Assembly (NCBI GenBank): GCA_964526385.1
Contig: CAZGJD010000004.1
Coordinates: 10,010 to 74,009 of the forward strand
Direction: 5' to 3'
DNA: 64,000 nt
Source: an uncultured Candidatus Poseidoniales archaeon
GTDB taxonomy: Archaea > Thermoplasmatota > Poseidoniia > Poseidoniales > Poseidoniaceae
Shown here: positions 1 through 38,786 of the stretch, one piece after another
Position numbering within the stretch: the first letter of the stretch is position 1
Layout of the letters: each line of letters begins with the position of its first letter
The notes under the pieces: generated by a model
Database searches by the model: none
What the model was told of the DNA's origin: nothing
Seen by the model: the letters and a program-made list of their open reading frames with translations, nothing else
Translations under genes and position numbers: made by a program

Positions 1-142
1 ATAGAATAGCAGATTCAAATAATGTTAGGATACCCAACAAACGCATTCCTTCTGTATACAATAGCGTTGTTTCAAACCCACCGTTTACGATAAAGAGTTT
101 TTCCAATTACATGAAGAAATATGCAAGCAGAAGGAAAAAAGG

Positions 143-985
143 TTGGTGAAGAAGGTGGAATCAATTACTGAACTCAAATCCTTTTCCTTCAGTTATCTTG
201 ATGCAACTTTTTCCCCATGTTCGGCTGAATTAGGCCCATTTAGCTCATTTATCATGTTCAACGACTACTTGGCCGCCGAAGAAGCAACGTTGGGAATGAT
301 GAATCTCTTCAATACCAAAAATCATTTTGAGATCTTGTCTTTTCCTAAAAGAAAAACTCGCTACACTGTTGAAATGCGGTTTGAAACGGATAAACATGAA
401 TATTTACTCACTCGATATTTTGTTGGGGTTACCTCTACTGAAAGTAAATTAGAACGGTTGGGGACTGGTATTTTTTTCTCCGGAAAAGACGCAATAACGA
501 AGTTGAAATCGATGGTGAAGCCGATAACGATCAATAATGGAGATTTCTATTCAAACCGCTGTGTTATTTTCAAACCGACCTCTGAAATTCAAAGGAAGGA
601 AATCGTTCGCACGGTTAATTCTTGGCTAAAAACAATCAATGCGGAAGGACGTGTTGAATTAGATTATGATTGCATATGGCGATTTATCAGAAATAATTTT
701 GACATCAAACAAGCTTGGACTTCAAATCGCATTCCAGCATATGTGAGGTTGTTGTATAACATCGCACAAGCTCTGATGAGAAAACGTATCTATGGTTACT
801 GTCCTCCTTCAATATCCTACATTGAATTACATTCCCTTTCAGTATTTGAATCGGTATCCGTACTACGACTTGCTAAAGAAATTTGTTCAACACATGGATT
901 GAATTTCGTAATGCTTTTTGGAGAATTTCAAGGCTCGGAGATGATTGAAATTACGACAATTCCTCATCTGGAGATAGATGAATAA
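143..985 (+). CDS. hypothetical protein; first visible gene of the MoxR-vWA-phosphatase cassette
   Basis: 280-codon ORF opening with TTG. The frame is open back to a TAG at 62-64, and the first in-frame ATG is at 254, so the start is uncertain. I recognise no catalytic motif. The C-terminal ISYIELHSLS...THGLNFVMLF weakly recalls a degenerate Walker-B/D-loop region of ABC/SMC-type ATPases, but there is no P-loop. Same strand as the six downstream genes. Confidence 0.45.
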   Translation: MVKKVESITELKSFSFSYLDATFSPCSAELGPFSSFIMFNDYLAAEEATLGMMNLFNTKNHFEILSFPKRKTRYTVEMRFETDKHEYLLTRYFVGVTSTESKLERLGTGIFFSGKDAITKLKSMVKPITINNGDFYSNRCVIFKPTSEIQRKEIVRTVNSWLKTINAEGRVELDYDCIWRFIRNNFDIKQAWTSNRIPAYVRLLYNIAQALMRKRIYGYCPPSISYIELHSLSVFESVSVLRLAKEICSTHGLNFVMLFGEFQGSEMIEITTIPHLEIDE

Positions 986-1004
986 TTGTTGAAAACCATC
1001 GGCC

Positions 1005-1016
1005 TTAATAATGTCC
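1005..1016 (+). promoter_or_regulatory. TTAATAATGTCC motif, copy 1 (TATA-like; candidate internal promoter or operator of the cassette)
   Basis: It lies in the 122-nt gap between cassette genes 1 and 2, about 100 nt upstream of TTG 1108. It is identical to the 12-mer at 5286-5297. Confidence 0.3.
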
Positions 1017-1107
1017 TTAATCCAAGTATTATAGCCGGCGAAGATAACTTATGTCTAACACTCTGTTAGTTATCGTTCAAGGTTGATTCAGAGAAGGTGA
1101 TTGGGTT

Positions 1108-2892
1108 TTGCGAGCAACCATTTTCAAGTCCACTCCTAAGCAAGAGAATGTACATTTAGACCTAGAAGAACGGCTTCGGTTTATCGGTAATGACGTGAAA
1201 ACGATCACTCTCAGAAGCACACATCACGGCTGTTCATTAATTCTTGATGCAATTGATTCGCTTGAATGCATAATCGCTTCGAGACCTGGTGCTGAAATCA
1301 TTTTTGAAAGTGCACCTAAGAAGCCGGTTGTTATTCGAGGAGAAGTTCATGACATAGTCTTGAAAGGTGGAGGAAAAGTCCACAGCCTTTATCGAAATAC
1401 TACCAACCGTACAATAGATTTTGACAATGGTAAATCAGTTCTTATAACAAATTCAGATGAAGTATTAGATGAAGAAGTTGATTCCATTATTTTGATACCG
1501 GAGGATATTTCTGACCTAAAAATTCGAAAGAATTACAATAACATATTGATAGTTGGAAATAGTAAATTGAAATCAATTACAGTACAAGGTGATGGTGTTA
1601 TCGGTAAATTATCGATAGAGTCATCTCCAAAACTAAAGCATTTAAAAATTGAAAAACGGGTAATGACTTGCTCAGTAAATGATTGTAGAGGCATAGAAAC
1701 AATTTCTGGATTCGGTGACAGGCTATTCATTTCCGGGAGAAGGAGAAGAAATCTTTGCATCGGAGGTTTCTGGTATCGAATTCCTGATTGGTATAGTGAA
1801 GTAGTATCTATGCTTGACTTGACACATTTCAATGGCCACCTAACCAGTGAACAGATTATGACATGTGAGGATCTTGGAGGCATCAATATCACACCTAGAA
1901 AATATGAGGGCAGGGGAGGAATGGTCGGCTTTTCTGAAACATTCGACATGCCAATTGATTCGATTCTAAACGGGATAGATGTTAAGAAATTTGTTGGGTT
2001 AATTCTCGAAAATCACGACAGATTTTTTGCCTTCGCGGCTTGGTGTTCTGGGAACCTTTCACGTTTCCAACAATATGTCGCGATGCGAGTTCTAGCATCT
2101 TTAGCTACAAACGGCTTTGACACGAATAAAATCCTCGACATCAGAAATTCACTACTTTACATGAACTCGACAATGCCTAACATTCTGAATGAATCTGTTA
2201 ACTCAGGGGACTTGGGAGGAAAATGGCGACCTATGTATTCGGGAGATTCTGAAAGTTGGGAAAATCCTTGTCACACAATTATGCCATTTGGGAGATTAGA
2301 TTTAGAGATATGGCTCAATTCTGAAGCCGATATTGAAGAAATGCTGGAGAGTAAATTCCAATTCAAGCAGATGTCAAATTCAAGTAAATATTTCAAGCCT
2401 TCAAGGAGTATTGCATTCAGAAGTTTAATTGTTACAATTCTGAGCGCATCAAATACATCCTCGAGAGATGTAGAAGCCGAAGAACGCTTAACAAAGTTAT
2501 CAGCATCCCTTTACAAAAATGAAATCATTAACAGTGACCCTTACATTTGTGAATACCTGATTTTTCACATCAACAAATCAAGAATTGTCAACAAGACGTT
2601 AATCAAAGAACTTGTCAAGGGTATTGAGAAAATAAATTGTCAGGCATGGAAGAAGGTCGCCCTATTGATTGGCATTATCGACCAGACAAATTCATCAAAA
2701 GCACGAGTCGCTTTGAAAAGACTCACTTCAGACAAGGAGTTTACTTTTGAAGAATCTGACCTCCTATACCGAATATCGTTAGAAGGGAAAGATGGGTTAG
2801 AAAATGGCACATTCGAAAGGCCAAAATGGCCTTACGTTAAAAATTGGAAAAAAATTAGGAGGAAGTTATTTGAATACAACGAGTATATCTAA
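1108..2892 (+). CDS. hypothetical 594-aa protein; N-terminal beta-solenoid/LRR-like region plus C-terminal all-helical region
   Basis: Long ORF with a TTG start 6 nt after GAAGGTGAT (1093-1101), which is complementary to the archaeal 16S 3' end. There is no in-frame ATG for about 185 codons. The N-terminal third has short alternating hydrophobic repeats (KLKSITVQGDGVIGKLSIESSPKLKHLKIEKRVMTCSVNDCRGIETISGFGDRLFISG). The C-terminal half is helix-like and low in Gly/Pro. No enzymatic motif seen. Confidence 0.6.
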   Translation: MRATIFKSTPKQENVHLDLEERLRFIGNDVKTITLRSTHHGCSLILDAIDSLECIIASRPGAEIIFESAPKKPVVIRGEVHDIVLKGGGKVHSLYRNTTNRTIDFDNGKSVLITNSDEVLDEEVDSIILIPEDISDLKIRKNYNNILIVGNSKLKSITVQGDGVIGKLSIESSPKLKHLKIEKRVMTCSVNDCRGIETISGFGDRLFISGRRRRNLCIGGFWYRIPDWYSEVVSMLDLTHFNGHLTSEQIMTCEDLGGINITPRKYEGRGGMVGFSETFDMPIDSILNGIDVKKFVGLILENHDRFFAFAAWCSGNLSRFQQYVAMRVLASLATNGFDTNKILDIRNSLLYMNSTMPNILNESVNSGDLGGKWRPMYSGDSESWENPCHTIMPFGRLDLEIWLNSEADIEEMLESKFQFKQMSNSSKYFKPSRSIAFRSLIVTILSASNTSSRDVEAEERLTKLSASLYKNEIINSDPYICEYLIFHINKSRIVNKTLIKELVKGIEKINCQAWKKVALLIGIIDQTNSSKARVALKRLTSDKEFTFEESDLLYRISLEGKDGLENGTFERPKWPYVKNWKKIRRKLFEYNEYI

Positions 2893-3988
2893 AGCGAAAA
2901 AAATATTGAAACATCAGCTGGCTATATTGTGGGACCACCCTGAGAAATCGGGCGTTGTTCCTCCAATGATGATATGGGGGCCACCAGGTATCGGTAAATC
3001 CACATTCATAAAGGAAATTTGCGAGGAGAACGGGATCGGATTTATCGATGTAAGACTAGCACAGAGAGAGCCTGTTGACATTCGAGGCCTGCCAGTCCCT
3101 AGAGATGACAAGCAGGGGATTGACTGGATTGTTTCCTCAGATTGGCCGAGATTAGAAGTCGAGGGTACACCTGAGAGAGGAATAATCCTGTTTGATGAGA
3201 TAACTGCAGCTGATAGTACATTACAGGTTGCTGCTTATGAATTCATTTTGGATAGGAGATTAGGCCAATTGTACGAAGTCCCCGAAGGTTGGTACATAGT
3301 TGCTGCTGGAAATAGAACCGGAGATTCTGCAGTAGCAAGAACCATGTCGAGTGCTCTTGCAAACAGATTCTGTCACATTGAAGTAGGATCAAATACTGAG
3401 AGCTGGTTAGATTGGGCTCTAATCAATAATATCGACCCGAGAGTTACTGGTTTCATCAGATTCTTACCGGATAACCTATTCTCTATGAAGGGTAACAAGG
3501 AAAGGGGCTGGCCGAGTCCAAGAAGTTGGGAAAGAGTGGCAATGGAAGTTGAATTGGCCGATAAATATCAACTAGAAAATGACATCTTACAAACGATAAT
3601 CGAAGGTCTGGTTGGAGAAGGCCCTGCTGTTGAATTCATGGGATTCCTGAACTGGTCAGAAAAGATTCCTGATGTTGGCAAGATGCTGAAGTCTGAAATC
3701 AAACCATCGATACCAAAAAGACCAGACCAAAAGTATGCAATGACCTCCGCAATCGTTCACTACCTTAGACAGCATGAGAGCCCTGAGGACTTAATTGATG
3801 GATACATGGATATCTTACTTGAATTCCCAAACGATTGGATGCAGTTGCTACAACATGACATAGAAATGGTGATGGATATTGAAGAAAAGGACGACTTCAT
3901 TGATGAATTAATGCTCCACGGCAAATACAAGGAAATGAGTTCCAGGATTATCGCTCATAAGCCTGCAAAAAAAGCGGCTGAGGCTTGA
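2870..3988 (+). CDS. MoxR-like AAA+ ATPase (AAA_5/CbbQ-NorQ-type)
   Basis: Walker A is MIWGPPGIGKST and Walker B is GIILFDEIT. Sensor-like AAGN and ALANRF elements are present, and it is a single AAA module with a C-terminal helical lid. The ORF is open from ATG 2804, which would overlap the upstream gene by 89 nt. TTG 2870 sits 7 nt after a perfect AGGAGG (2857-2862) and gives only a 23-nt overlap, so I prefer 2870. Confidence 0.85.
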   Translation: MNTTSISKAKKILKHQLAILWDHPEKSGVVPPMMIWGPPGIGKSTFIKEICEENGIGFIDVRLAQREPVDIRGLPVPRDDKQGIDWIVSSDWPRLEVEGTPERGIILFDEITAADSTLQVAAYEFILDRRLGQLYEVPEGWYIVAAGNRTGDSAVARTMSSALANRFCHIEVGSNTESWLDWALINNIDPRVTGFIRFLPDNLFSMKGNKERGWPSPRSWERVAMEVELADKYQLENDILQTIIEGLVGEGPAVEFMGFLNWSEKIPDVGKMLKSEIKPSIPKRPDQKYAMTSAIVHYLRQHESPEDLIDGYMDILLEFPNDWMQLLQHDIEMVMDIEEKDDFIDELMLHGKYKEMSSRIIAHKPAKKAAEA

Positions 3989-3990
3989 CC

Positions 3991-5271
3991 ATGTCAGATA
4001 TAGTCGAAGAGAAAGTGTCTTTTCACCAACCCTCTAAATCCGATATTACTGCCAAGGAAGAAGGGCTTCAGAATTGGTCTGAAGATCGTGTTAAAATGCT
4101 CCGAACCAGGCCCTTTATTGGCACTCTAGCAATGAATCTAGAACTTGTTCCTGTTGTAGACCACAGATGCCCGACAGCTTGCACGGATGGAAGAAAGATT
4201 TTCTTCAATCCACACTTTCTAAATTCACTATCCAATAGCGAGAGAATGACGATACTCGGTCACGAAATCTGGCACTGTGGATTATCTCACTTCACCAGAG
4301 AACATGGCAGAATAGAAGACCATGAAATGTGGAATCACGCAATTGACCATGAAGTAAATGCCCTACTAAAGGCCGATAATTTCGTGATTCCTGAACATGC
4401 TGTCTTGTATAGAGAGTATGAGGGAGAGTCTGCAGAAACAGTGTTCGAACTCATAAAAAACGGTACAATACAAATGCGTGGTGAATGTTTGGATGAACAT
4501 AAGACATCGGGAGACCCACGGAAGGGAAAGAACAGTGGAAAAGACGGATGGTCAACAATTTCTGTAGGTGAGGATGGAAGTATTGAAGCAAAAGTAGATT
4601 CTGATTTCACACCGAACAGAACTGATGATGTTTGGCGAGATTGGAAAAACAAAATGATGGCGGCGGCCCAACAATGTCAACAACGCGGAGTCGACATGGG
4701 CGCATACAAAGACAAACTGGAAGATTTATTCGCATCTGAAATGGATTGGAAAGAAATCCTTAGACAATACCTCACACCAATGTTTGACAGCACTAGGAAG
4801 TGGCTACCCCCAAACAGAAGACACGTTTACAAGAAGATGTACCTTCCTTCATTACGAAAGGACAAACAATTGAACATTGTAATTGCAATTGATACGAGTG
4901 GTTCTACAACAGGTGACATAGTCAAGACATTTGTTAGTGAAGTATTTGCTATCTTGAATTCGTTCGGAGGTTACTGCCTCAGGTTGATACAATGTGACTG
5001 GGACATTACAGAAGATACGATTTACAATTCTGAGAGACCTTTCATTCCAGAGGAATTTAAACTCAAAGGTGGCGGAGGTACAAGTTTTGTTCCCGTATTC
5101 AATTTGATCGATAATGACTTTGAAGACCCAGAAGTTTTGTTGTATCTTACCGATGGCTACGGTTCTGCACCTGGAAAAAAACCGAGATATCCTGTTATCT
5201 GGGGTGTGATTGAGAACGGAATAGTACCTGCTAATTGGGGAGAATCTCTTTCAATTAGATTAGGGAATTAA
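3991..5271 (+). CDS. vWA domain protein fused to an N-terminal HExxH putative metallopeptidase module (COG3864/DUF2201-like architecture)
   Basis: N-terminal ILGHEIWHCGLSHF (HExxH) is followed by NHAIDHEVN. The C-terminal part has a MIDAS-type IAIDTSGSTTGD and a later LTDGYG, typical of vWA folds. ATG 3991 lies 2 nt after the MoxR stop (TGA 3986-3988), with GAGG 7 nt upstream. The ORF track starts at TTG 3985. Confidence 0.8.
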   Translation: MSDIVEEKVSFHQPSKSDITAKEEGLQNWSEDRVKMLRTRPFIGTLAMNLELVPVVDHRCPTACTDGRKIFFNPHFLNSLSNSERMTILGHEIWHCGLSHFTREHGRIEDHEMWNHAIDHEVNALLKADNFVIPEHAVLYREYEGESAETVFELIKNGTIQMRGECLDEHKTSGDPRKGKNSGKDGWSTISVGEDGSIEAKVDSDFTPNRTDDVWRDWKNKMMAAAQQCQQRGVDMGAYKDKLEDLFASEMDWKEILRQYLTPMFDSTRKWLPPNRRHVYKKMYLPSLRKDKQLNIVIAIDTSGSTTGDIVKTFVSEVFAILNSFGGYCLRLIQCDWDITEDTIYNSERPFIPEEFKLKGGGGTSFVPVFNLIDNDFEDPEVLLYLTDGYGSAPGKKPRYPVIWGVIENGIVPANWGESLSIRLGN

Positions 5272-5285
5272 GAAATTCGTCACCT

Positions 5286-5297
5286 TTAATAATGTCC
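5286..5297 (+). promoter_or_regulatory. TTAATAATGTCC motif, copy 2
   Basis: It lies in the 121-nt gap between cassette genes 4 and 5, about 105 nt upstream of ATG 5393. Confidence 0.3.
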
Positions 5298-5392
5298 ACC
5301 CCGATATACTATTGCAAGAATTATTGGTGAGCGGTTTTTCACATTTAGGCCGTTTTTCGTACCGATAATTATCAGTTGGGGGAGATGAAAAA

Positions 5393-6034
5393 ATGAGTAA
5401 CGATAGTGATAACAAGATTTGGAGAATAGTGGCACGTGTTGATGACGAAATCATTGTCAAAGAAGCAAATAGGAAAGGTAAGGTAGTACGTTCAATTCGA
5501 AACGCAGTAGTTCAAAAATTGTGTAGGTCGGTGAATATCGATTATGAATATGGCTGGTGGAAGGGTAAGTCAAACATTCCCAAAGTCATGTTTGTGGACC
5601 TATTTCTAGGAGATGCTTTGCTCGTGATGGCAGACGATGCTATTGAAGTAGAAGTGCATAATGTTCCAAACCAGTTTTATTTGGTCGATGATGTCAGAGC
5701 AATCTTCTTTTCGGGGAGTAACATGAAGGCAGAGAACTTTGATTCATTTGGATTCTATCACTACGGTGAAGGTGATTCTGAGAAGTATCATCTACTCGGC
5801 AGAAATCTTACTATACCGTCTCATGTTACTGGTTCTAAATCATCTGAAAATGAAGAAGTAATAGCAATTTGTGATGCTGAAGAGGCTTCTACAGAATGCC
5901 CCAATTGCAATCAAACTGTTCCTTTTGGAACCCTTGTATTACTAACTGAGAATTACAGATTATTACCATCAAGTTGCTGTAACAAAATGTATTGGCACAG
6001 AACTGACGAGGGCTTTGGAGATGAGTGGGCGTGA
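5393..6034 (+). CDS. hypothetical protein with C-terminal Cys-rich (zinc-ribbon-like) tail
   Basis: 213-aa ORF with ATG 6 nt after GGGGGAGAT. The C-terminus has CPNCN...(about 25 aa)...CCNKMYWH. No other motif recognised. It overlaps the downstream phosphatase gene by 14 nt. Confidence 0.55.
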   Translation: MSNDSDNKIWRIVARVDDEIIVKEANRKGKVVRSIRNAVVQKLCRSVNIDYEYGWWKGKSNIPKVMFVDLFLGDALLVMADDAIEVEVHNVPNQFYLVDDVRAIFFSGSNMKAENFDSFGFYHYGEGDSEKYHLLGRNLTIPSHVTGSKSSENEEVIAICDAEEASTECPNCNQTVPFGTLVLLTENYRLLPSSCCNKMYWHRTDEGFGDEWA

Positions 6035-6848
6035 TACTTTGCAAGCTAAACGGGATCACAATATTGAACAAGAATTACAAACAACTCTCGATAATGGTGG
6101 GAACGTATGGGCTATTGGGGATGTTCACGGCCATGCTGACACGTTGGAAGCATTGTTAGAAAAATTGAATCTTCACTCACTGGACCGTGTTGTCCTTCTG
6201 GGAGACATGATAGATAGAGGGCCAAAATCAAATTCAGTAATTAAAATGGCAAGAAATAATCCACAAATTTTCTGCGTCTTAGGAAATCACGAAGACATGA
6301 TGCTGAAAAATTTTGACCCTACAGAGTTTGATTCCTTTTCTATCGACCAATTTGCTTGGATGTATAATGGGGGACGGGCCACTTTGAACTCCTACCTTGA
6401 AGAATTTACAAATAGTGATGGGTCGATAAATAAATACAAATTAAAAAAGAGAGGAGCTCAAGACTTAGCTTGGCTTGATTCTCTTCCACACCACATTGTC
6501 CTAGATGAGTTTAGATTAGTTCATGCAGGGTATATGCCTCATGACATTGAGCCAGACCTTCAAACAAAGGAGACTCTTTTGTGGATTAGAAAAGAGTTCC
6601 ACGAAACAATTTTCCCAATCGATTACGAAAGAACCGTGATCTTTGGACATTCGCCAATGCCATTCTTTGGATTAAAACAGTCTGAGGTTTGGGAATCCGA
6701 CGCTGAATTGCGAAATGGAAGAACAGCTGCAATAGGAATTGACTCCTGCTGTTATGGAGGAAAAGATCCTCAATTAACAGCTATTAATTTACAAACAGGA
6801 GAAATAATGAAACAAAAAATACAACACAAAAAGGAGGTATTAATATGA
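6021..6848 (+). CDS. PPP-family metallophosphoesterase (Ser/Thr phosphatase / ApaH-PrpA-like)
   Basis: Canonical PPP motifs appear in order: GDVHGH, GDMIDRGP, GNHE, then later VHAG and GHSP. The ORF track starts at TTG 6015; I prefer ATG 6021, which has GAGGG 9 nt upstream. Confidence 0.85.
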   Translation: MSGRDTLQAKRDHNIEQELQTTLDNGGNVWAIGDVHGHADTLEALLEKLNLHSLDRVVLLGDMIDRGPKSNSVIKMARNNPQIFCVLGNHEDMMLKNFDPTEFDSFSIDQFAWMYNGGRATLNSYLEEFTNSDGSINKYKLKKRGAQDLAWLDSLPHHIVLDEFRLVHAGYMPHDIEPDLQTKETLLWIRKEFHETIFPIDYERTVIFGHSPMPFFGLKQSEVWESDAELRNGRTAAIGIDSCCYGGKDPQLTAINLQTGEIMKQKIQHKKEVLI

Positions 6849-7180
6849 CAAAAAAGAATGAAATAAAAACAGAGCCAGCAACAGAAGAAAGCCTAATGAT
6901 TGGAAATGACGCACATCCTTTCGACCGAGATTTACCAAAGACGGTTAATTTTGAAGAACAAATGCACCCAGTATTAGTTGACGGAATCAAAGGTAAGGCT
7001 TGCACAGGAACCCTTGGAGGATATAGTGACAGGATATCAATCCAGTTAGAAGAAGAACACCCTGAACTTGGAATCAACTTTACTACCAAGTATTTCATTT
7101 TCGAAGAACCTGGAAAGGTAATGTGGGGACATCATCACGCAAGATTTCAAATTGATTTGATTGTGGAAGAAGAGGAATAA
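6845..7180 (+). CDS. hypothetical 111-aa protein; last gene of the cassette
   Basis: ATG overlaps the phosphatase stop (ATGA at 6845-6848) and is preceded by AAGGAGGT (6831-6838) at 6-nt spacing. No recognisable motif. Confidence 0.55.
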   Translation: MTKKNEIKTEPATEESLMIGNDAHPFDRDLPKTVNFEEQMHPVLVDGIKGKACTGTLGGYSDRISIQLEEEHPELGINFTTKYFIFEEPGKVMWGHHHARFQIDLIVEEEE

Positions 7181-7216
7181 GCAAATATTCACATTGGATA
7201 ATATCCACCACTTGAC

Positions 7217-8470
7217 ATGGGCGAGGCTACTGCACGCTACACAAACGCAGTACTTATCGATGATGAGCAGCGCACACATCTCGGTGATTTCCTAATTCAT
7301 GCAGACGGTACCTGGACCCAATCAAACGGAGATGAAGATGTTGTTCACAACATTGACGGGACGAAGAAATTGATTACTCGTTCTTTCCAGAATTGGCATA
7401 CTCACTTGCCTATGCAGTTGAATGCCCGTGATTTTTCTGATGGCTTGCCATTGGATGAATGGCTCGAGAAATCCATTTTTCCAACCGAGATGAATCTAAC
7501 AAAAGAATACGCACGAATAGGTGCTCTAGCTTCTGCGTTAGAGATGATCAAAACCGGTTCAACGTTTGCTTGTGACATGTATCATTTCCCTGAAGCGATT
7601 GTTGATGCGTTAAATGAGGCTGGACTTAGAGGGGTGGTATGTGGCCCACAAACTCTTTGGCCACCACAGGAAAATGGTGATGATGGTAGTGTCAGGAGAC
7701 TATTGGATAAACAATTAGCTTCTAACAGGCCTGAAAATAAAGTCCAGTATGGTGTTGCAACGCATGCTGTTTACACTTGCGACAAGGAAACACTTCTTGG
7801 TGGAAAAGAATTAGCTGAAAGGCATGATGCTCACCTTCACGTACATATCTCTGAAACAAGAAAAGAAGTTGCAGGGTGCCATGAAAAAACCGGCATGTAT
7901 CCAGTAGAATACCTCGACAGTCTAGATTACTTCATTCCTGACAAAACAATCTGCGCTCATGGTTCATGGGTAAAGAAATCAGAAATGAGAACAATGGCCT
8001 CAAGAGGTGCGACTTTAGTTCACTGCCCTTCCTCAAACATGAAACTAGCATGCGGAGGAACTGCTTCCATACCTGCATACAGAGATGCTGGAGTCAATAT
8101 CAGACTAGGAACTGACGGGCCTGCTTCAAGCGGTTCTGGACTCGATATGGCTCATGAAGCAAGAATGGCTTGTCTTGTACAGAGGCACGACCACTGGGAC
8201 GCTTCAGCAATGCTTGCAAAAGAAGCATTCGCAATTGCTACCACGGGTAGCCAAGATTGGGCCGTTTGGGACCTGAATGACATCAAGATGTCACCATATG
8301 GCAAAGATAACGAAAGGCACATCTCTAATCTAATTTACAACGGTGCAAAATGTCTGGACCTTTGGGTAGAAGGAGAGGCTTTGATGAAGGATTGTAAGGT
8401 CAATTCTATCGATGAAAGCAAACTTCTGACTGATTTCAATACGGCAGTGGATAATTACTATTCGTTTTAA
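7217..8470 (+). CDS. mtaD: amidohydrolase; 5-methylthioadenosine/S-adenosylhomocysteine (or 5'-deoxyadenosine) deaminase type
   Basis: Metal-ligand pattern NWHTHLPM, HVHISETRKEV, VHCPSSNMKLA and GTDGPASSG. Length (417 aa) and motif spacing match MtaD/DadD-type deaminases. Confidence 0.75.
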   Translation: MGEATARYTNAVLIDDEQRTHLGDFLIHADGTWTQSNGDEDVVHNIDGTKKLITRSFQNWHTHLPMQLNARDFSDGLPLDEWLEKSIFPTEMNLTKEYARIGALASALEMIKTGSTFACDMYHFPEAIVDALNEAGLRGVVCGPQTLWPPQENGDDGSVRRLLDKQLASNRPENKVQYGVATHAVYTCDKETLLGGKELAERHDAHLHVHISETRKEVAGCHEKTGMYPVEYLDSLDYFIPDKTICAHGSWVKKSEMRTMASRGATLVHCPSSNMKLACGGTASIPAYRDAGVNIRLGTDGPASSGSGLDMAHEARMACLVQRHDHWDASAMLAKEAFAIATTGSQDWAVWDLNDIKMSPYGKDNERHISNLIYNGAKCLDLWVEGEALMKDCKVNSIDESKLLTDFNTAVDNYYSF

Positions 8471-8484
8471 TTATTATATCCAAA

Positions 8485-9264
8485 TCAGTATCGTTTATTG
8501 AGGTCGTAACTTTGGTAAGAGAAATTTTGATTTTCTTCTAATGACGCCTGAGTAAGAATATCTGGCGCAATATATCTACCTCTACCGTATGCATCATTGT
8601 CGATTTGTTGCTGGTAATTATGCTTTGAAACTGCAGATTGCATTTCTTCTTGAAACTTCTTTTCTTGAATATCTTTCATCATCTTTCTCTGTATTAAGAA
8701 TGAATTCAAGAACAAAGCGAGTCCAATTAATTGAACATTCACATCAGTCAAAACGATATCTGAAGGTATTTGACCATTCATGATGAAATATCCATAAATT
8801 ACAAACAGTGTTCCAAGGGCTGCTGAACCAAATAAATACAGATTTTTTCTCATATATCGGTTGATCAAGAAAGAAATCCCAACCAAGATTCCGCCCATTA
8901 TTTCAGTTCCAGAATCATATCCGTTAGCTTCCAAGACAGATATTATGAAGAGCATAGTTTGAAGGGAAATATATGCAGTAACTGCAAGAGATAGAAGATT
9001 TACTGCTGTGAACATCAATAATCCAATTCCAAGTGTTATTACAATCGTCACATCTCCCTGAGGATATGGTATCATTTCACCAATTTCACTGTAAATTATT
9101 GCGCTTGATAAATGACCAATTGCACACCCAGTTAAGAACGAAAGAATCTTGATTCTTTTTGCACCTTTTAACATTAGGTAAGCACCTAAAATTATCAAAA
9201 TTACTCCAAAGGTAGGACCGCCCCAGGAGTCAATTTGTGCCCATATTTCAGCAGATAATCCCAT
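8485..9264 (-). CDS. polytopic membrane protein, unknown function
   Basis: 259 aa with about 7 hydrophobic segments and a polar Q/N/Y-rich C-terminal tail. Confidence 0.6.
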   Translation of the reverse strand: MGLSAEIWAQIDSWGGPTFGVILIILGAYLMLKGAKRIKILSFLTGCAIGHLSSAIIYSEIGEMIPYPQGDVTIVITLGIGLLMFTAVNLLSLAVTAYISLQTMLFIISVLEANGYDSGTEIMGGILVGISFLINRYMRKNLYLFGSAALGTLFVIYGYFIMNGQIPSDIVLTDVNVQLIGLALFLNSFLIQRKMMKDIQEKKFQEEMQSAVSKHNYQQQIDNDAYGRGRYIAPDILTQASLEENQNFSYQSYDLNKRY

Positions 9265-9280
9265 GCCAAATTCCTCAAAG

Positions 9281-10405
9281 TTACATCATCCAGAAACTCA
9301 TGGCTAAAATGATGTAACATGCTAACAACATTATACCCTCTAACCAATTTGATTTTCCATCATTCAGGATGAAATTAACAACCAGAACTGACATGAAGGT
9401 AGCCACAGTTTCCAAAGGTCCGAATTCAAGTGATAGATTCACTCCCATCAACCAAGCAAAAATTACCATCAATGGGGCTACAAAAACCGCTATCTGTACA
9501 CTTGAACCAATTGCAATAGCGAGAGATAAGTCCATTTTGTTTTTACCCGCTACAATAACTGCGGTGAAGTGTTCGGCTGCATTTCCAAAGAATGGGAGTA
9601 AGATAACTCCTATGAAAAGAGCAGGCAAATTCCACTCATTTGCGGCCGAATCGATTGAGTGAACGAGAATTTCAGCCATCCACCCTACCAAAACCGTCGC
9701 TAAAATGAGTAATGTCCAAGCATCCTTAGAGGTCATCTTAGGTTCTTCATGCTCAATTTTCTCGTCGGAATCAAAAATTTCAGAATGCGTCTTTAATTGG
9801 AACAATAGTGCTAATGCATAAATTACCAACAAGACTAATGAAGCATATCTAGATAATCGGACAATACTTTCAAATCCTCCTCCGCCAAGATTTACCGCAG
9901 CTGGGATGAGCATAGCAAGGACCGCAATAAGTAACATCGAACCACTTGAATCCAATGCTGATTGGTTGAAACTCTGGTTCTTGTGATTAATCCCCCCCCA
10001 TAAAACTGCTAATCCCAAAACAAGTAACATATTCCCGAGAATACTCCCCACAAGGCTTGCCTGAACGACGGTTATCATCGTTTCAGCTTGGTCAGCGTGT
10101 GTAGCTGCCGTGTAAATTGCTAAACCAGCAATTATGATTTCAACAGCATTACCAAATGTGGCATTAAGAAGACCACCAAGAGATTGACTAGTACGTAGCG
10201 AAATTTCCTCAGTAGCATGACCCATCAACAATGCTAACGGCATGATAGCAACCATAGAAAATAGAAAACTGAATGCGGGATCGTGTGCGATTATAGAAAA
10301 ATATGCCGTTATCGGAACTGCAACAAGTAACCAGTTCAACTTATTTTCAGCAGGACTGAATGCCTGAAGTACGCTAATTTCTGAAGATGTATGTTCTTCA
10401 GACAC
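9281..10405 (-). CDS. Ca2+/H+ antiporter (CaCA/CAX family)
   Basis: Two alpha-repeat signatures, GNAVEIIIAG and GNAAEHFTAV, sit in the two halves of an 11-TM-like protein separated by an acidic loop (DSDEKIEHEEPK). Confidence 0.85.
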   Translation of the reverse strand: MSEEHTSSEISVLQAFSPAENKLNWLLVAVPITAYFSIIAHDPAFSFLFSMVAIMPLALLMGHATEEISLRTSQSLGGLLNATFGNAVEIIIAGLAIYTAATHADQAETMITVVQASLVGSILGNMLLVLGLAVLWGGINHKNQSFNQSALDSSGSMLLIAVLAMLIPAAVNLGGGGFESIVRLSRYASLVLLVIYALALLFQLKTHSEIFDSDEKIEHEEPKMTSKDAWTLLILATVLVGWMAEILVHSIDSAANEWNLPALFIGVILLPFFGNAAEHFTAVIVAGKNKMDLSLAIAIGSSVQIAVFVAPLMVIFAWLMGVNLSLEFGPLETVATFMSVLVVNFILNDGKSNWLEGIMLLACYIILAMSFWMM

Positions 10406-10409
10406 AAAA

Positions 10410-13634
<3,225 letters not shown>

Positions 13635-13707
13635 GATTTGGTTATGAGGATACCGCCGAAGGCGGTACAAAATGTGCGTAATTTGCGTGTGTTCTGTAGT
13701 TTTCAAA

Positions 13708-14424
13708 TTAAGCTTCATCGTCATTATTATTATCTGTTGAAGTAGATATAGGCTCCGATTTATCAAGTCGCTGAATTTCTGCTCTTGCTTTAATGAATCT
13801 TACAATAAAGGTGTATGCTCCACCTAGTCCAGATATGGCGATAATTATCGATATTGGATTTATTTCAATATCGTTCCAAGTGCCAAACGAATCTTCACCA
13901 ATGTAAGCCATGACTGCACAGGAAATTAAAGCGATGAACGTCAAAACCATCCTGTCGGCTCTACTGAAGCCACCATAATTTCTGGCCCCTGAAACCGCCT
14001 GTGCTTGTGTGCCCAAATAGGAGCCAAACATTGTCAACATCGCTGCAAGCCAGGCTAGTTCTACATGCCCAAACCAATACATATTGTATCCAAGAGCAAG
14101 AATCCAGACAACATCGAGGACCCTGTCAAGCGTATGATCAAGATAATCACCCCATCGAGTGACCTTTCCTGTAGCTCTTGCTAAATTTCCATCCAATCCA
14201 TCGAGAGCCATTGCCATTGCCATCAAGAAAGCTGCACCTAAAAACATCAATGCACCATCTGTTCCTGCTTCTGCACTCATCATCATGTAGGCTGAAAGTA
14301 ATCCTGTTGGAAGGGTTAGCCAAGTCAAAACAGCAGGTTCAACACCGTGTAATTTAGTTACCAAAGGATCGCTCATTTTCTTGAACATGTTGCGTCCTTT
14401 TTCTAAGGCCATGATATACTCCAA
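13708..14424 (-). CDS. CDP-alcohol phosphatidyltransferase family protein (archaetidylserine/-inositol-phosphate synthase type)
   Basis: Signature DGLDGNLARATGKVTRWGDYLDHTLDRVLD (D-G-x2-A-R-x8-G-x3-D-x3-D) in a multi-TM protein. Confidence 0.85.
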   Translation of the reverse strand: MEYIMALEKGRNMFKKMSDPLVTKLHGVEPAVLTWLTLPTGLLSAYMMMSAEAGTDGALMFLGAAFLMAMAMALDGLDGNLARATGKVTRWGDYLDHTLDRVLDVVWILALGYNMYWFGHVELAWLAAMLTMFGSYLGTQAQAVSGARNYGGFSRADRMVLTFIALISCAVMAYIGEDSFGTWNDIEINPISIIIAISGLGGAYTFIVRFIKARAEIQRLDKSEPISTSTDNNNDDEA

Positions 14425-15726: not shown

Positions 15727-15804
15727 TGGTAGCGGGAGATGGATTTGAACCATCGATCTACGGGTTATGAGCCCGTCGGTCGAACCATGCTAACCTATCC
15801 CGCT
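15727..15804 (-). tRNA. tRNA-Met (CAT), archaeal initiator type, with genomically encoded CCA
   Basis: The reverse complement folds as a clean cloverleaf: acceptor AGCGGGA/TCCCGCT, D arm GGTT..GACC, anticodon arm ACGGG-CTCATAA-CCCGT, T arm GATGG-TTCAAAT-CCATC, discriminator A plus CCA. The A1:U72 pair and three G:C pairs closing the anticodon stem are initiator hallmarks. Confidence 0.85.
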
Positions 15805-38611: not shown

Positions 38612-38786
38612 AGCGTTCCCTCAAACTCATACTCGGCAACATGAAGCGTTTGACCTTTGTGTGGTTTTTTGAAAAAATAATGCGATATGGCTTATCAAAA
38701 TACATCACCGTATCTCAAAATTTGATGATATTTTATCTCACAACCATGACACGACTTCAAATACCATTGATTGTGAATTGGTCTCT

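What the first reader, a model, noticed from the sequence alone, without database searches (positions are those of the whole stretch)
143..7180. Seven-gene MoxR AAA+ / vWA-HExxH peptidase / PPP phosphatase cassette with four orphan partners: candidate undescribed NTP-dependent system
Seen in the sequence: seven same-strand ORFs, most with coupled junctions.
- Gene 2 and the MoxR gene overlap, with AGGAGG at 2857-2862 placed 7 nt before TTG 2870.
- The MoxR stop (3986-3988) is 2 nt from ATG 3991.
- The 213-aa gene overlaps the phosphatase gene by 14 nt.
- The phosphatase and the 111-aa gene share ATGA at 6845-6848, behind AAGGAGGT.
- Only two gaps of about 120 nt exist (986-1107 and 5272-5392).

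Every recognisable catalytic motif is intact: Walker A GPPGIGKS and Walker B ILFDEIT; HEIWH; MIDAS DTSGST; GDVHGH/GDMIDRG/GNHE.

Established knowledge: MoxR ATPases work with vWA partners as remodellers (RavA-ViaA, CbbQ-CbbO, NorQ-NorD). vWA proteins also nucleate conflict systems. As I recall, these include the TerY-P triad (vWA + PP2C phosphatase + Ser/Thr kinase, antiphage in the 2020 Gao et al. survey) and the vWA-MoxR-VMAP ternary systems (Kaur, Burroughs, Iyer and Aravind 2020).

Inference: this cassette mixes elements of both but matches neither. The phosphatase is PPP-type rather than PP2C, and no kinase is visible. The vWA is fused to a putative metallopeptidase. The remaining four proteins (280, 594, 213 and 111 aa) have no motif I can place. 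A plausible logic is an ATP-driven remodeller gating a latent peptidase, with a sensor (the 594-aa repeat protein) and a phosphatase as reset or effector. The cassette may extend upstream of coordinate 1.
Basis: partly seen in the sequence, partly recalled or inferred. Interest (0 to 1): 0.85.

Follow-up and report, generated by a model that had tools for sequence, protein, structure and literature searches.

The report
Accessory AAA+/vWA-protease cassette in marine archaea
A real, strain-variable gene cassette of at least eight genes in Marine Group II archaea, built around a phage-type ATPase/vWA-protease pair plus a private repeat protein; it matches no named system and is most plausibly an ATP-gated virus or mobile-element conflict system, which is unproven.

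Summary
All seven ORFs, junctions and motifs are as described.

It has three co-oriented sub-operons:
- A: ABC plus the "280-aa orphan", which is a degenerate P-loop-less ABC paralog.
- B: g594 (beta-solenoid plus alpha-solenoid, no structural homolog), a midasin/MoxR-like AAA+, and a zincin-vWA protein (DUF2201).
- C: g213, a PPP phosphoesterase, and g111.

The AAA+/zincin-vWA pair is not new. It is homologous to phage N4 gp24/gp25 (core N4-like genes, function unknown) and is common in phages and plasmids. What is new is triad B: every g594-family member checked (65 hits in 1.84 billion proteins) is followed by this pair, with variable partners.

In Poseidoniaceae the cassette sits between PGK and an amidohydrolase. 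30 of 43 informative loci carry it; the rest are empty, deleted or hold other genes. A strain 98.7% identical in the flank lacks 7.9 kb. All genes are under purifying selection, and ABC/g280/g594 diverge fastest.

No PADLOC system matches. VMAP, TerY-P, PARIS/AbiL and SbcCD membership tests fail. Best reading: an accessory conflict system, a new variant of AAA+-vWA ternary systems (confidence about 0.5).

The parts
3..149 (+). 3' end (last 48 codons) of the upstream ABC ATPase gene (module A). The full gene is about 323-351 aa in relatives and is cut by the window edge.
   Evidence: Frame-3 translation RIADSNNVRIPNKRIPSVYNS...RRKKGW* matches the C-terminus of the L010/L004 ABC protein. Pfam: AAA_23, SMC_N, AAA_15. 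PADLOC: AbiLi 9e-13, plus GajA, PtuA, AriA. PDB profile hits: SMC3, Rad50, AriA and PtuA heads.
143..985 (+). g280: degenerate, P-loop-less paralog of the neighbouring ABC ATPase head (module A). It is translationally coupled to ABC by a 7-nt overlap.
   Evidence: hhalign of the g280 family against the ABC family: E = 8.9e-6, probability 83%, 266 colinear columns spanning both proteins. There is no Walker A in the alignment. No hits in Pfam, PADLOC or PDB.
986..1107 (+). Intergenic gap between modules A and B, with a TATA/BRE-like element (GGCCTTAATAATGTCC, 12-mer at 1005-1016). In other lineages this is the insertion point of variable small genes (x123, x175, a DSP phosphatase).
   Evidence: Extra genes at this boundary are seen in L006-9, L016/17, L046, L053 and L075.
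1108..2892 (+). g594: the private third component of the triad (module B). An N-terminal beta-solenoid (about residues 1-225, the most variable part) is joined to a C-terminal alpha-solenoid (the most conserved part).
   Evidence: AF2 model: pLDDT 80.5, pTM 0.80. Foldseek against PDB and BFVD: no hit with E < 1e-3. The family has 65 hits in 1.84e9 proteins. It is always followed by the AAA+ and DUF2201 genes. Variability profile.
2870..3988 (+). AAA+ ATPase of the AAA_5/midasin/MoxR-like type, homolog of phage N4 gp24 (module B). Its start overlaps the end of g594.
   Evidence: phrog_1297 2e-80. A profile including phage members has midasin AAA as its best PDB hit, 1.3e-12. Walker A G37-K43-S44, Walker B D109-E110, N148, R166 and R218 are invariant. 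EcP1 and Presley annotations read 'similar to gp24 of N4'.
3991..5271 (+). Zincin metallopeptidase (DUF2201_N) fused to a C-terminal vWA/MIDAS domain (DUF2201), homolog of phage N4 gp25 (module B).
   Evidence: Pfam 1e-37 and 5e-19. phrog_1314 5e-89. H91-E92-x-x-H95, H100, the D301-x-S303-x-S305 MIDAS motif, T364 and D388 are invariant across archaeal and phage members. Found in 639 phage records, 118 plasmid records and at least 600 IMG/VR loci.
5272..5392 (+). Intergenic gap between modules B and C, with a conserved BRE/TATA-like element (CACCTTTAATAATGTCC, 12-mer at 5286-5297) about 105 nt upstream of g213.
   Evidence: GGGTT(T/A)ATAA lies at about -105 of g213 in all ten lineages inspected.
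5393..6034 (+). g213: orphan protein with a conserved N-terminal domain (KIWRI.AR.DDEII.K ... GWWKG) and a C-terminal CPxC...CC zinc ribbon (module C).
   Evidence: Alignment. No Pfam, PADLOC or PDB match. The AF2 model is unusable, pLDDT 49. The family has 11 clusters.
6015..6848 (+). PPP-family (lambda-PP/ApaH/PrpA-like) metallophosphoesterase (module C). The start is TTG 6015 or ATG 6021.
   Evidence: Metallophos 4e-16. NCBIfam: ApaH 6e-17, PrpA/B 3e-12, Pnkp 2e-10. phrog_246 NinI-like 2e-43. Nearest PDB entries: Ap4A hydrolases, lambda phosphatase, Pnkp phosphatase. GDVHGH, GDMIDRG and GNHE motifs are present.
6845..7180 (+). g111: small, highly conserved orphan, translationally coupled to PPP through ATGA (module C). 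It is retained intact alone in L063 and truncated in L038, so its membership in the system is the least certain.
   Evidence: Alignment with 81% mean column identity. No PDB hit. L063 carries an intact 101-aa copy behind a promoter-like box. The L038 deletion endpoint lies at window 7044/7045.

Best explanation
The region is a non-essential, vertically inherited but repeatedly lost accessory cassette of Poseidoniaceae (Marine Group II archaea). It is inserted between the housekeeping genes PGK and an amidohydrolase and consists of three co-oriented sub-operons.

The conserved heart is a triad:
- a lineage-private solenoid protein (g594);
- a midasin/MoxR-like AAA+ ATPase;
- a protein that joins an intact zincin protease to a vWA/MIDAS domain.

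The last two are homologs of phage N4 gp24/gp25.

Proposed mechanism (inferred by analogy with midasin-MIDAS, CbbQ-CbbO and the predicted vWA-MoxR ternary conflict systems):
1. The MIDAS site of the vWA domain grips an acidic peptide of a partner or target.
2. The AAA+ ring uses ATP to remodel that complex.
3. g594 acts as the specificity/scaffold subunit. Its variable beta-solenoid end recognises a trigger, most plausibly a virus or mobile-element product. Its conserved alpha-solenoid end docks on the ATPase/vWA core.
4. Remodelling licenses the zincin to cleave its substrate.

In Poseidoniaceae two accessory modules are added. One is a Rad50/AriA-like ABC ATPase heterodimerised with an inactive paralog (g280), a second fast-evolving nucleotide-dependent sensor or clamp that co-diverges with g594. 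The other is a PPP phosphoesterase with two small partners (g213 with a Zn ribbon, and g111), acting as a reset or second effector on phosphoproteins or on NpnN/nucleotide signals.

Shown: gene content, motifs, modular architecture, triad conservation, homology to gp24/gp25, strain-level presence/absence, purifying selection, two rate classes.

Inferred: physical complex formation, the trigger, the protease substrate, and the anti-virus role.
For: 1. The triad is the conserved unit. Every g594-family member examined is immediately followed by the AAA+ and DUF2201 genes: the Poseidoniaceae loci plus five divergent lineages L023, L032, L033-35, L036 and L037. Upstream and downstream partners differ.
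2. Catalytic residues are intact and invariant in the AAA+, the zincin and the MIDAS site. dN/dS is 0.03-0.08 for all genes.
3. The cassette is accessory. Among PGK-anchored loci of the cassette-bearing clade, 30 carry it, 4 are empty, 2 keep only g111 or a g111 remnant, and 7 hold other cargo. 29 loci of a sister clade have PGK directly next to the amidohydrolase.
4. L038 is 98.7% identical to the window from 7045 onward but lacks 7.9 kb, leaving a g111 stump. L063 is an independent deletion with a different endpoint.
5. There are two rate classes. Mean pairwise distances are ABC 0.56, g280 0.47 and g594 0.39, against 0.16 for the AAA+. ABC, g280 and g594 co-diverge after controlling for the AAA+ (partial r 0.59-0.79, permutation p about 5e-4). 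The most variable part of g594 is its beta-solenoid.
6. Partner families are of the type seen in conflict systems. The ABC ATPase is closest to AbiLi, GajA, PtuA and AriA. L023 has an IetA-like AAA (6e-26). L037 has a CARF protein in the same array (2e-14). L075 has a DSP-PTPase of the polymorphic-toxin type.
7. The AAA+/vWA pair is a mobile-element module: N4-like core genes, phage G, conjugative plasmids. The AAA+ profile is closest to midasin, an AAA+ known to work through a MIDAS domain.
Against: - No component set matches any PADLOC system.
- No known defence systems flank the cassette in this window, which is otherwise core chromosome.
- Alternative cargo at the same locus shows no recognised defence genes.
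- The enzymes (AAA+, vWA-zincin, PPP, g111) are as conserved as housekeeping genes. The cassette has been kept at one locus across genus-level divergence, which is less typical of defence islands.
- No experimental function exists for any DUF2201/gp24-gp25 homolog, so the mechanism is analogy only.
- Modules A and C are absent from the divergent triad loci, so their functional coupling to B is not proven. The co-divergence signal could partly reflect saturation non-linearity.
- g111 survives alone in L063.
Confidence: 0.5

Rival explanations
1. This is a variable hotspot holding three independent small systems that are merely neighbours: (A) an ABC/pseudo-ABC pair, (B) the g594-AAA+-vWA-zincin triad, and (C) g213-PPP-g111. 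Each works on its own.
For: - The module boundaries coincide with the only two intergenic gaps, and each has its own conserved BRE/TATA-like box.
- B occurs without A and C in L023, L033, L036 and L037.
- L075 has B without A.
- L079 has a PPP paralog plus small genes in inverted orientation next to PGK.
- g111 persists alone in L063.
- Variable genes insert at the A/B boundary.
Against: - Within Poseidoniaceae, B is followed by module C genes wherever the contig reaches far enough downstream, and A precedes B in every locus that reaches upstream except L075. Order and orientation are fixed.
- The L038 deletion removes all three together.
- ABC and g280 (module A) co-diverge with g594 (module B) beyond shared phylogeny.
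- A phosphatase, either PPP or DSP, recurs with the triad in different positions.
Confidence: 0.22
2. This is a housekeeping-type chaperone/maturation machine. Like RavA-ViaA, CbbQ-CbbO or NorQ-NorD, the AAA+-vWA pair with adaptors assembles or repairs a cellular complex or metalloenzyme. The peptidase would act in quality control and the phosphatase in regulation.
For: - The AAA+, vWA-zincin, PPP and g111 are as conserved as the flanking housekeeping genes (63-77% against 76-84%) and are under strong purifying selection.
- The chromosomal position is stable across genera.
- It is adjacent to a metal-dependent amidohydrolase.
- Characterised MoxR-vWA pairs are remodellers (established knowledge; summarised in PMC7159879).
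Against: - The cassette is dispensable at strain level (L038, 98.7% identical in the flank, lacks it).
- It is absent from 13 of 43 informative loci of its own clade and from all 29 loci of the sister clade. In those, the amidohydrolase still sits next to PGK, so the amidohydrolase is not a dedicated client.
- The partners ABC, g280 and g594 evolve very fast.
- The nearest relatives of the pair are in phages and plasmids, not next to metabolic clients.
Confidence: 0.13
3. This is a domesticated or decaying remnant of a virus or other mobile element (or a selfish addiction module). The gp24/gp25-like pair and the NinI-like phosphatase would serve the element rather than the host.
For: - Three proteins hit phage families strongly: phrog_1297 2e-80, phrog_1314 5e-89, and phrog_246 (NinI-like) 2e-43.
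- The pair is a core module of N4-like phages and also occurs on conjugative plasmids.
- Presence/absence polymorphism.
Against: - There is no integrase, capsid, terminase, replication gene or tRNA attachment site in or next to the cassette.
- GC content is unremarkable.
- The best viral homolog is only 32% identical, and none of 80 viral loci carries any of the other six genes.
- g594 has no viral hit.
- The cassette sits at the same chromosomal site across genus-level divergence, with dN/dS of 0.03-0.08.
Confidence: 0.1

Closest known systems
Phage N4 gp24 (AAA+ ATPase) / gp25 (vWFA, Pfam DUF2201_N + DUF2201) pair
   Same: - Both proteins are homologous over their full length (phrog_1297 2e-80, phrog_1314 5e-89).
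- Gene order is the same: ATPase upstream of the vWA protein on one strand.
- The Walker motifs, HExxH and MIDAS motifs are invariant.
   Different: - Identity is only about 25-32%.
- In phages and plasmids the two genes usually have about 1 kb (one gene) between them and sit among replication or T4SS genes. None has g594, ABC, g280, g213, PPP or g111 nearby.
- The function of gp24/gp25 is unknown (PMC4193335).
vWA-MoxR ternary conflict systems (VMAP, iSTAND, FtsH and beta-propeller classes) predicted by Kaur, Burroughs, Iyer and Aravind 2020 (PMC7159879)
   Same: - An AAA+ of the MoxR-related clade, a vWA/MIDAS protein and a constant 'third component' carrying a variable, non-enzymatic region.
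- Peptidase and calcineurin-type phosphoesterase domains among the associated activities.
- Variable partners around a constant core.
- L023 even adds a classical AAA ATPase, as the FtsH class does.
   Different: - g594 gives no Pfam hit, and its C-terminal 370 residues are all-alpha rather than the alpha+beta VMAP-C.
- The peptidase is N-terminal to the vWA domain rather than in the C-terminal effector position.
- The ATPase is gp24/midasin-like rather than a canonical MoxR.
- The hosts are unicellular planktonic archaea, not multicellular bacteria.
Midasin (Rea1) AAA ring with its MIDAS domain; also CbbQ-CbbO, RavA-ViaA and NorQ-NorD remodellers
   Same: - Midasin AAA modules are the best solved-structure match to the ATPase profile (1.3e-12).
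- The logic is an AAA_5-type motor acting through a MIDAS-bearing partner.
   Different: - Midasin is a single giant eukaryotic polypeptide, whereas here there are separate small proteins.
- None of those systems carries a fused zincin.
- Canonical MoxR structures were not retrieved at E <= 1e-3.
PARIS (AriA/AriB), AbiL (AbiLi/AbiLii), Septu/retron PtuA and Gabija GajA ABC-ATPase defence modules
   Same: - The upstream ABC ATPase is most similar to these ATPases (AbiLi 9e-13; AriA and PtuA in the PDB).
- It is translationally coupled to a partner of about 280-294 aa.
   Different: - The partner is an inactive ABC paralog, not a Toprim/DUF4435 or HNH nuclease.
- The ATPase is a head-only protein of about 325-350 aa.
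- In the window clade the Walker B Glu is Asp, and the H-loop His is Arg.
TerY-P triad (vWA TerY + PP2C phosphatase + Ser/Thr kinase)
   Same: A vWA protein is genetically linked to a protein-phosphatase-type enzyme.
   Different: - The phosphatase is PPP-type (or DSP-type in L075), not PP2C.
- No kinase domain appears in any cassette protein.
- The vWA domain is DUF2201-type and fused to a zincin.

Membership tests
DUF2201 / N4 gp25-like zincin-vWA proteins with a gp24-like ATPase | Pfam DUF2201_N plus DUF2201 above the gathering threshold | tested here: met
   130.4 bits (cutoff 23.2) and 68.9 bits (cutoff 26.4). phrog_1314 5e-89.
DUF2201 / N4 gp25-like zincin-vWA proteins with a gp24-like ATPase | Conserved HExxH zincin motif and a complete MIDAS motif (DxSxS...T...D) | tested here: met
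   H91, E92, H95, H100, D301, S303, S305, T364 and D388 are invariant in a 9-sequence archaeal plus phage alignment.
DUF2201 / N4 gp25-like zincin-vWA proteins with a gp24-like ATPase | A gp24-type AAA+ ATPase encoded upstream on the same strand | tested here: met
   The ATPase matches phrog_1297 at 2e-80. 67 of 80 viral loci have the ATPase upstream on the same strand. Phage records annotate these genes as N4 gp24/gp25 homologs.
MoxR AAA+ family (strict: Pfam AAA_3/AAA_5) | Score above the Pfam gathering threshold for AAA_3 or AAA_5 | tested here: not met
   AAA_5 scores 19.1 bits against a cutoff of 22, and only the P-loop region matches. There is no AAA_3 hit. The L037 homolog has only a weak AAA_5 hit.
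MoxR AAA+ family (broad: AAA_5/midasin/dynein-related clade that pairs with MIDAS domains) | Profile similarity to members of the clade beyond the P-loop, and pairing with a vWA/MIDAS protein | tested here: met
   The profile hits midasin AAA modules at E = 1.3e-12, covering Walker A through the sensor-1/Arg region (profile positions 18-179). The vWA gene lies 2 nt downstream.
VMAP-type vWA-MoxR ternary system (Kaur et al. 2020) | A third component with the VMAP-C alpha+beta domain (7 strands, 6-7 helices) at its C-terminus | tested here: not met
   g594 has no Pfam family at E <= 0.1. The Pfam copy does contain other families from that work (nSTAND3, nSTAND6). From memory, and not verified here, it also contains the VMAP models. 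In the AF2 model the C-terminal 370 residues are all-helical. The definition is from PMC7159879.
VMAP-type vWA-MoxR ternary system (Kaur et al. 2020) | Variable effector domains fused C-terminal to the vWA domain | tested here: not met
   The vWA domain is the C-terminal domain (residues 296-422) and the zincin is N-terminal (33-289).
VMAP-type vWA-MoxR ternary system (Kaur et al. 2020) | A three-gene core (third component + MoxR + vWA) conserved with variable partners | tested here: met
   The g594-AAA+-vWA triad is conserved in all lineages examined, with different neighbours. This is an architectural analogy only.
TerY-P triad | A PP2C phosphatase and a Ser/Thr kinase next to a TerY-type vWA protein | tested here: not met
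   The phosphatase is Metallophos/PPP-type. No kinase or PP2C domain appears in any cassette protein.
PARIS / AbiL two-gene ABC-ATPase systems | An ABC ATPase of the AAA_15/AAA_21 type | tested here: met
   Pfam AAA_23, AAA_15, SMC_N and AAA_21. PADLOC AbiLi 9e-13 and AriA 9e-9. PDB AriA 1.5e-7.
PARIS / AbiL two-gene ABC-ATPase systems | A Toprim/DUF4435 (AriB/AbiLii) effector partner | tested here: not met
   g280 and its 294-aa homolog hit no PADLOC or Pfam model. Instead g280 aligns end to end with the ABC ATPase itself.
Mre11-Rad50 / SbcCD | A Rad50-type ABC ATPase with a long coiled coil and zinc hook, adjacent to an Mre11-type nuclease | tested here: not met
   The ABC protein is only 323-351 aa, i.e. 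head only. The Metallophos protein carries the PPP hallmarks GDxHG, GDxxDRG and GNHE, and its nearest relatives are ApaH and lambda-PP. The two genes are about 5 kb apart.
PPP-family (lambda-PP/ApaH/PrpA-like) phosphoesterases | The motifs GDxHG, GDxxDRG and GNH(D/E), and a Metallophos domain above threshold | tested here: met
   GDVHGH, GDMIDRG and GNHE are in the sequence. Metallophos scores 60.5 bits against a cutoff of 21.5. The substrate (protein or nucleotide) is not testable here.
Any catalogued anti-phage system (PADLOC-DB v2.0.0) | The set of component HMMs of a named system is present | tested here: not met
   Only generic ATPase-level hits were found. The vWA-zincin, g594, g280, PPP and g111 had no PADLOC hit at E <= 0.1, and g213 had only a non-significant KwaB hit (E = 0.016). 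DefenseFinder was not available.

The most novel reading that the evidence does not exclude
The g594-AAA+-zincin/vWA triad is a previously unrecognised type of ATP-gated proteolytic immune system. In Poseidoniaceae it is elaborated with an ABC/pseudo-ABC sensor pair and a phosphoesterase trio. It would have been built by domesticating the phage N4 gp24/gp25-type module, and it would be the first lineage-specific antiviral system defined for the uncultured, globally abundant Marine Group II archaea. Its study would also reveal what the enigmatic core genes gp24/gp25 of N4-like phages do.
Probability: 0.35. Interest if true: 0.8.

Novelty: new variant of a known kind. Interest (0 to 1): 0.6.

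Why it matters
Marine Group II archaea are among the most abundant planktonic archaea, are uncultured, and have almost no described virus-defence repertoire.

This cassette is a clean, strain-variable locus with intact enzymes. Its presence or absence can be followed directly in ocean metagenomes and metatranscriptomes.

It also ties a widespread but functionally blank module of mobile elements to a cellular context with identifiable partners. That module is the N4 gp24/gp25 pair (DUF2201), a core gene pair of Schitoviridae that is also found in jumbo phages and on conjugative plasmids. The cellular context gives a concrete hypothesis: an AAA+ motor gating a MIDAS-tethered zincin.

If the conflict reading is right, it extends the predicted vWA-AAA+ 'ternary' immune architecture to archaea and adds a new sensor fold. 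If it is wrong, it is still an unusual accessory proteolytic/remodelling machine.

Tried and rejected
- RADAR-like idea (AAA+ next to an adenosine-deaminase-fold amidohydrolase). Rejected: the amidohydrolase sits next to PGK at all empty sites and is 82-99% conserved, so it is an ancestral housekeeping neighbour.
- SbcCD/Mre11-Rad50 idea (ABC plus Metallophos). Rejected on size, motifs and gene spacing.
- g280 as a Toprim/DUF4435 effector. No support; it is an inactive ABC paralog.
- VMAP identity of g594. No Pfam hit and the wrong secondary structure.
- g594 in phages or viral contigs. No tblastn hit in 50,697 phage records, no IMG/VR relative, no BFVD fold match.
- Fold identification of g594 against the PDB. 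Only generic ARM/HEAT resemblance (best E = 3.8e-3, TM about 0.2).
- The search for homologous proteins on g280 returned only two near-identical clusters. Its divergent relatives had to be taken from the fetched loci.
- AF2 model of g213. pLDDT 49, unusable, so no fold search was run. g213 and g111 profiles found nothing in the PDB.
- The 133-aa Zn-ribbon protein after the L023 triad is not related to g213.
- The shared 12-mer TTAATAATGTCC in both gaps is not significant on its own: 10 of 100 shuffles give at least 2 hits at one mismatch or fewer. The promoter reading rests on cross-lineage conservation instead.
- Alternative cargo at the PGK locus was scanned for known defence genes, and none was found.
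- Literature searches for DUF2201, PF09967, PF13203, COG3864, N4 gp24/gp25 function and Poseidoniales defence found nothing functional.
- Close viral relatives of the vWA-zincin using the single protein: none. With the profile: many, but at most 32% identical.

Full report
**1. Observation**

The seven + strand ORFs are present at the stated coordinates.
- AGGAGG at 2857-2862 lies 7 nt before TTG 2870.
- TGA 3986-3988 is followed by 'cc' and then ATG 3991.
- The g213 stop (6032-6034) overlaps ATG 6021 by 14 nt. An alternative TTG start exists at 6015.
- AAGGAGGT at 6831-6838 precedes ATGA at 6845-6848.
- The only gaps are 986-1107 and 5272-5392.

All quoted motifs are in the translations. Pfam gives DUF2201_N (1e-37) plus DUF2201 (5e-19) for the 426-aa protein, Metallophos (4e-16) for the 277-aa protein, and a weak generic AAA hit for the 372-aa protein. 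It gives nothing for the 280-, 594- and 111-aa proteins and only a sub-threshold zinc-finger hit for the 213-aa protein. PADLOC finds no system.

These are real genes. The array recurs on many independent contigs. Against a relative about 91% identical (L010), dN/dS is 0.03-0.08 for every gene, the same range as the adjacent housekeeping amidohydrolase at 0.038.

**2. The cassette is larger and modular**

Related contigs show an additional gene upstream, a 323-351-aa ABC ATPase whose stop overlaps the start of the 280-aa gene. Window 3-149 encodes its last 48 residues.
- Pfam: AAA_23, SMC_N, AAA_15.
- PADLOC: AbiLi 9e-13, then GajA, PtuA and AriA.
- Family profile against the PDB: SMC3, Rad50, AriA and PtuA heads.

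The '280-aa orphan' aligns colinearly and end to end with this ABC family (hhalign E = 8.9e-6, 266 columns) but has no P-loop. It is a degenerate paralog, presumably forming an asymmetric head heterodimer.

The two ~120-nt gaps are the boundaries of three translationally coupled sub-operons:
- A = ABC + g280
- B = g594 + AAA+ + zincin-vWA
- C = g213 + PPP + g111

Each sub-operon is preceded by a BRE/TATA-like box. The box upstream of ABC is conserved in most lineages, and GGGTT(T/A)ATAA lies about 105 nt upstream of g213 in all ten lineages inspected. A similar box upstream of g594 is seen only in the window clade, L017/L018 and L023. In other species, variable small genes are inserted exactly at the A/B boundary: x123, x175, and in L075 a dual-specificity phosphatase.

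**3. What the parts are**

*AAA+ ATPase.* It strongly matches phage family phrog_1297 (2e-80). A profile including phage members has the AAA modules of midasin as its best solved-structure hit (1.3e-12). It is sub-threshold for Pfam AAA_5. It is therefore MoxR-like only in the broad AAA_5/midasin sense. Walker A, Walker B, the sensor residues and the arginines are invariant.

*Zincin-vWA protein.* It matches phrog_1314 (5e-89). Homologs occur in 639 phage records (N4-like podoviruses, Bacillus phage G, Thermus phiFa), 118 plasmid records and at least 600 IMG/VR loci. Phage annotations identify the pair as homologs of N4 gp24/gp25. These are among the 14 core genes of N4-like phages and have no known function (PMC4193335). 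HExxH (plus H100) and a complete MIDAS motif are invariant across archaeal and phage members.

*g594.* A confident AF2 model (pLDDT 80.5, pTM 0.80) shows an N-terminal beta-solenoid (about residues 1-225) and a C-terminal alpha-solenoid. Foldseek finds nothing significant in the PDB or BFVD. Residues 90-180 are the most variable and the C-terminal part is the most conserved.

*PPP enzyme.* It belongs to the lambda-PP/ApaH/PrpA/Pnkp-phosphatase group.

*g213 and g111.* g213 has a conserved N-terminal domain plus a CPxC...CC ribbon. g111 is small and 81% column-identical across species. Both remain orphans.

**4. Distribution**

The g594 family is tiny: 21 clusters by word-seeded search and 65 hits, many of them fragments, in an exhaustive HMM search of 1.84 billion representatives. 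In GTDB genomes it is found only in Poseidoniales MAGs.

In Poseidoniaceae the gene order is fixed:
PGK - ABC - g280 - (variable genes) - g594 - AAA+ - zincin-vWA - g213 - PPP - g111 - amidohydrolase - membrane protein - Ca/cation antiporter.

In five more divergent lineages (L023, L032, L033-35, L036, L037) the g594 homolog is again immediately followed by the AAA+ and DUF2201 genes. Modules A and C are absent and other, mostly unknown, genes take their place. These include an IetA-like classical AAA plus a 265-aa protein in L023, and a CARF protein and DUF2130 in L037.

The triad is therefore the conserved functional core. Viruses and plasmids carry only the pair. None of 80 viral loci has any of the other six genes, and the best viral identity is 32%.

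**5. Accessory status**

I used PGK as an anchor to fetch 80 metagenomic loci and classified what follows PGK in each.

| Clade | Outcome | Loci |
|---|---|---|
| Cassette-bearing clade (PGK mostly >= 72% identical) | carry the cassette (L075 lacks ABC/g280) | 30 |
| | PGK directly followed by the amidohydrolase | 4 |
| | only g111 or a g111 stump | 2 |
| | other cargo | 7 |
| | too short to tell | 5 |
| Sister clade (PGK 64-67%) | PGK directly followed by the amidohydrolase | 29 (all that are long enough) |

L038 is 98.7% identical to the window from 7045 to 10634, but upstream it joins directly onto the PGK 3' flank. That is a 7.9-kb deletion leaving the last 136 nt of g111. L063 is an independent deletion that fuses the promoter-like region after PGK to an intact g111.

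The cassette is thus dispensable and has been lost repeatedly. The amidohydrolase is an ancestral neighbour, not a client. The rest of the window is ordinary chromosome: FtsZ, malic enzyme, a chorismate-utilising synthase, MMPL, giant surface proteins and an AddA-like helicase-nuclease.

**6. Evolutionary rates**

Relative to the window, species with PGK at 76-80% and amidohydrolase at 82-84% identity fall into two classes:

| Class | Gene identities |
|---|---|
| Slow | AAA+ 73-76%, zincin-vWA 69-72%, PPP 63-66%, g111 65-77% |
| Fast | ABC 29-33%, g280 28-34%, g594 38-42%, g213 44-50% |

Mean pairwise distances are 0.56, 0.47 and 0.39 for ABC, g280 and g594, against 0.16 for the AAA+. ABC, g280 and g594 co-diverge after controlling for AAA+ distance (partial r 0.59-0.79, permutation p about 5e-4). 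The caveat is that saturation non-linearity may contribute to this signal. The pattern, a constant enzymatic core with fast-evolving non-enzymatic or sensor-like subunits, is what is expected of conflict systems, but it is not proof.

**7. Mechanism (inference)**

The inference draws on midasin-MIDAS, CbbQ-CbbO and the predicted vWA-MoxR ternary systems (PMC7159879).
1. The vWA MIDAS site binds an acidic element of a partner or target.
2. The AAA+ ring remodels that complex using ATP.
3. g594 provides specificity through its variable beta-solenoid and docks through its conserved alpha-solenoid.
4. The outcome is licensing of the zincin to cleave a substrate.

The ABC/pseudo-ABC pair would be a second nucleotide-dependent sensor or clamp, as AriA and PtuA are in PARIS and Septu. 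The PPP enzyme with g213 and g111 would be a reset or second effector. A different phosphatase type (DSP) placed next to g594 in L075 suggests that dephosphorylation chemistry is functionally tied to the triad.

I rate the accessory conflict-system reading at about 0.5. The rivals are three independent neighbouring modules (0.22), a housekeeping remodeller (0.13) and a mobile-element remnant (0.10).

**8. Comparison with known systems and novelty**

Membership is met for the DUF2201/gp25 plus gp24 pair and for PPP phosphoesterases. It is not met for strict MoxR, VMAP ternary systems, TerY-P, PARIS/AbiL or SbcCD, nor for any PADLOC system (see the membership table).

The architecture works like a vWA-AAA+ ternary system but differs in four ways: a new third component, an N-terminal zincin on the vWA protein, a gp24-type motor, and archaeal planktonic hosts. 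I class it as a new variant of a known kind.

No literature on this cassette or on DUF2201 function was found.

Noticed in passing
phage records (H2, H4, H8, H11 and others); L028 4447-4947: RefSeq and PHROGs (phrog_1314) label the DUF2201 zincin-vWA proteins of phages as 'HNH endonuclease'. The proteins have no HNH domain in Pfam. In Vibrio phage SBP1 a separate small HNH gene sits between the ATPase and the 'metallopeptidase', which may be the source of a propagated mis-annotation.
   Followed up: partly
L075 2428-3003: In a cassette variant lacking ABC and g280, a 191-aa dual-specificity/PTP-type phosphatase lies directly upstream of g594 (Pfam Tc-R-P 1e-10, DSPc 3e-9, PTP-SAK 3e-9). This is a second, unrelated phosphatase type linked to the triad.
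   Followed up: partly
L023 7439-9781: In the most divergent Poseidoniales locus the triad is preceded by a classical AAA ATPase (500 aa; PADLOC IetA 6e-26, TRIP13 1e-15) and an unknown 265-aa protein, in place of ABC and g280. A 133-aa Zn-ribbon protein follows the vWA gene.
   Followed up: partly
L037 1511-5605: A divergent triad (634-aa g594-like protein, AAA_5-weak ATPase, DUF2201 protein) lies in a same-strand array with a CARF-domain protein (PADLOC CARF3 2e-14; Pfam Cas_NE0113), a DUF2130 protein and two unknowns. This hints at a link to cyclic-oligonucleotide signalling.
   Followed up: no
L010 6134-7105 and alignment A3: In the window's clade the ABC ATPase has Asp instead of the catalytic Walker B Glu (LIDDFD against LIDE in other species). 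All members have Arg where the ABC H-loop His normally sits. The ATPase may bind ATP but hydrolyse it slowly.
   Followed up: no
window 1005-1016 and 5286-5297: An identical 12-mer, TTAATAATGTCC, occurs in both intergenic gaps. It is TATA-box-like, and a related box (GGGGTTTAATAATCTCC) precedes the lone g111 in L063. It is not significant on its own: 10 of 100 shuffles give at least 2 hits.
   Followed up: partly
L079 2697-4903; L072 and L078: In some relatives PGK is followed by a PPP paralog (46-48% identical) on the opposite strand. In L079, small proteins related to x123 and x175 follow it. This is a different arrangement of the same gene families at the same locus.
   Followed up: no
L026 6838-7746; L068 and L070: About 0.9 kb of extra sequence, possibly another gene, lies between PGK and the ABC gene in some lineages. 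In L013 the ABC gene appears split into two tblastn pieces (7856-8257 and 8364-8819), possibly by a frameshift or assembly error.
   Followed up: no
window 10410-13766 (-) and 10387-10896 (+): A 1118-aa predicted surface protein has an Ig-like domain and a long poly-Asp run followed by a basic tail. The opposite-strand 169-aa 'poly-Ser' ORF is its mirror-image artefact.
   Followed up: no
window 38778-47090 (+): A 2770-aa ORF with no Pfam domain at E <= 1e-5. A 1123-aa ORF at 23940-27311 (-) also has no Pfam hit. These are probably the giant surface proteins typical of Marine Group II archaea.
   Followed up: no
window 15727-15804 (-): A single tRNA-Met (CAT) is the only RNA-family hit in the window. 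It is not adjacent to the cassette, so there is no tRNA-linked integration site.
   Followed up: yes
L118 4924-8194 (Burkholderia ambifaria conjugative plasmid): An ATP-binding protein, a 309-aa hypothetical protein and a VWA-like (DUF2201) gene sit immediately upstream of the T4SS genes (VirB2, VirB3, VirB4). The gp24/gp25-type module is therefore also carried by conjugative elements.
   Followed up: no
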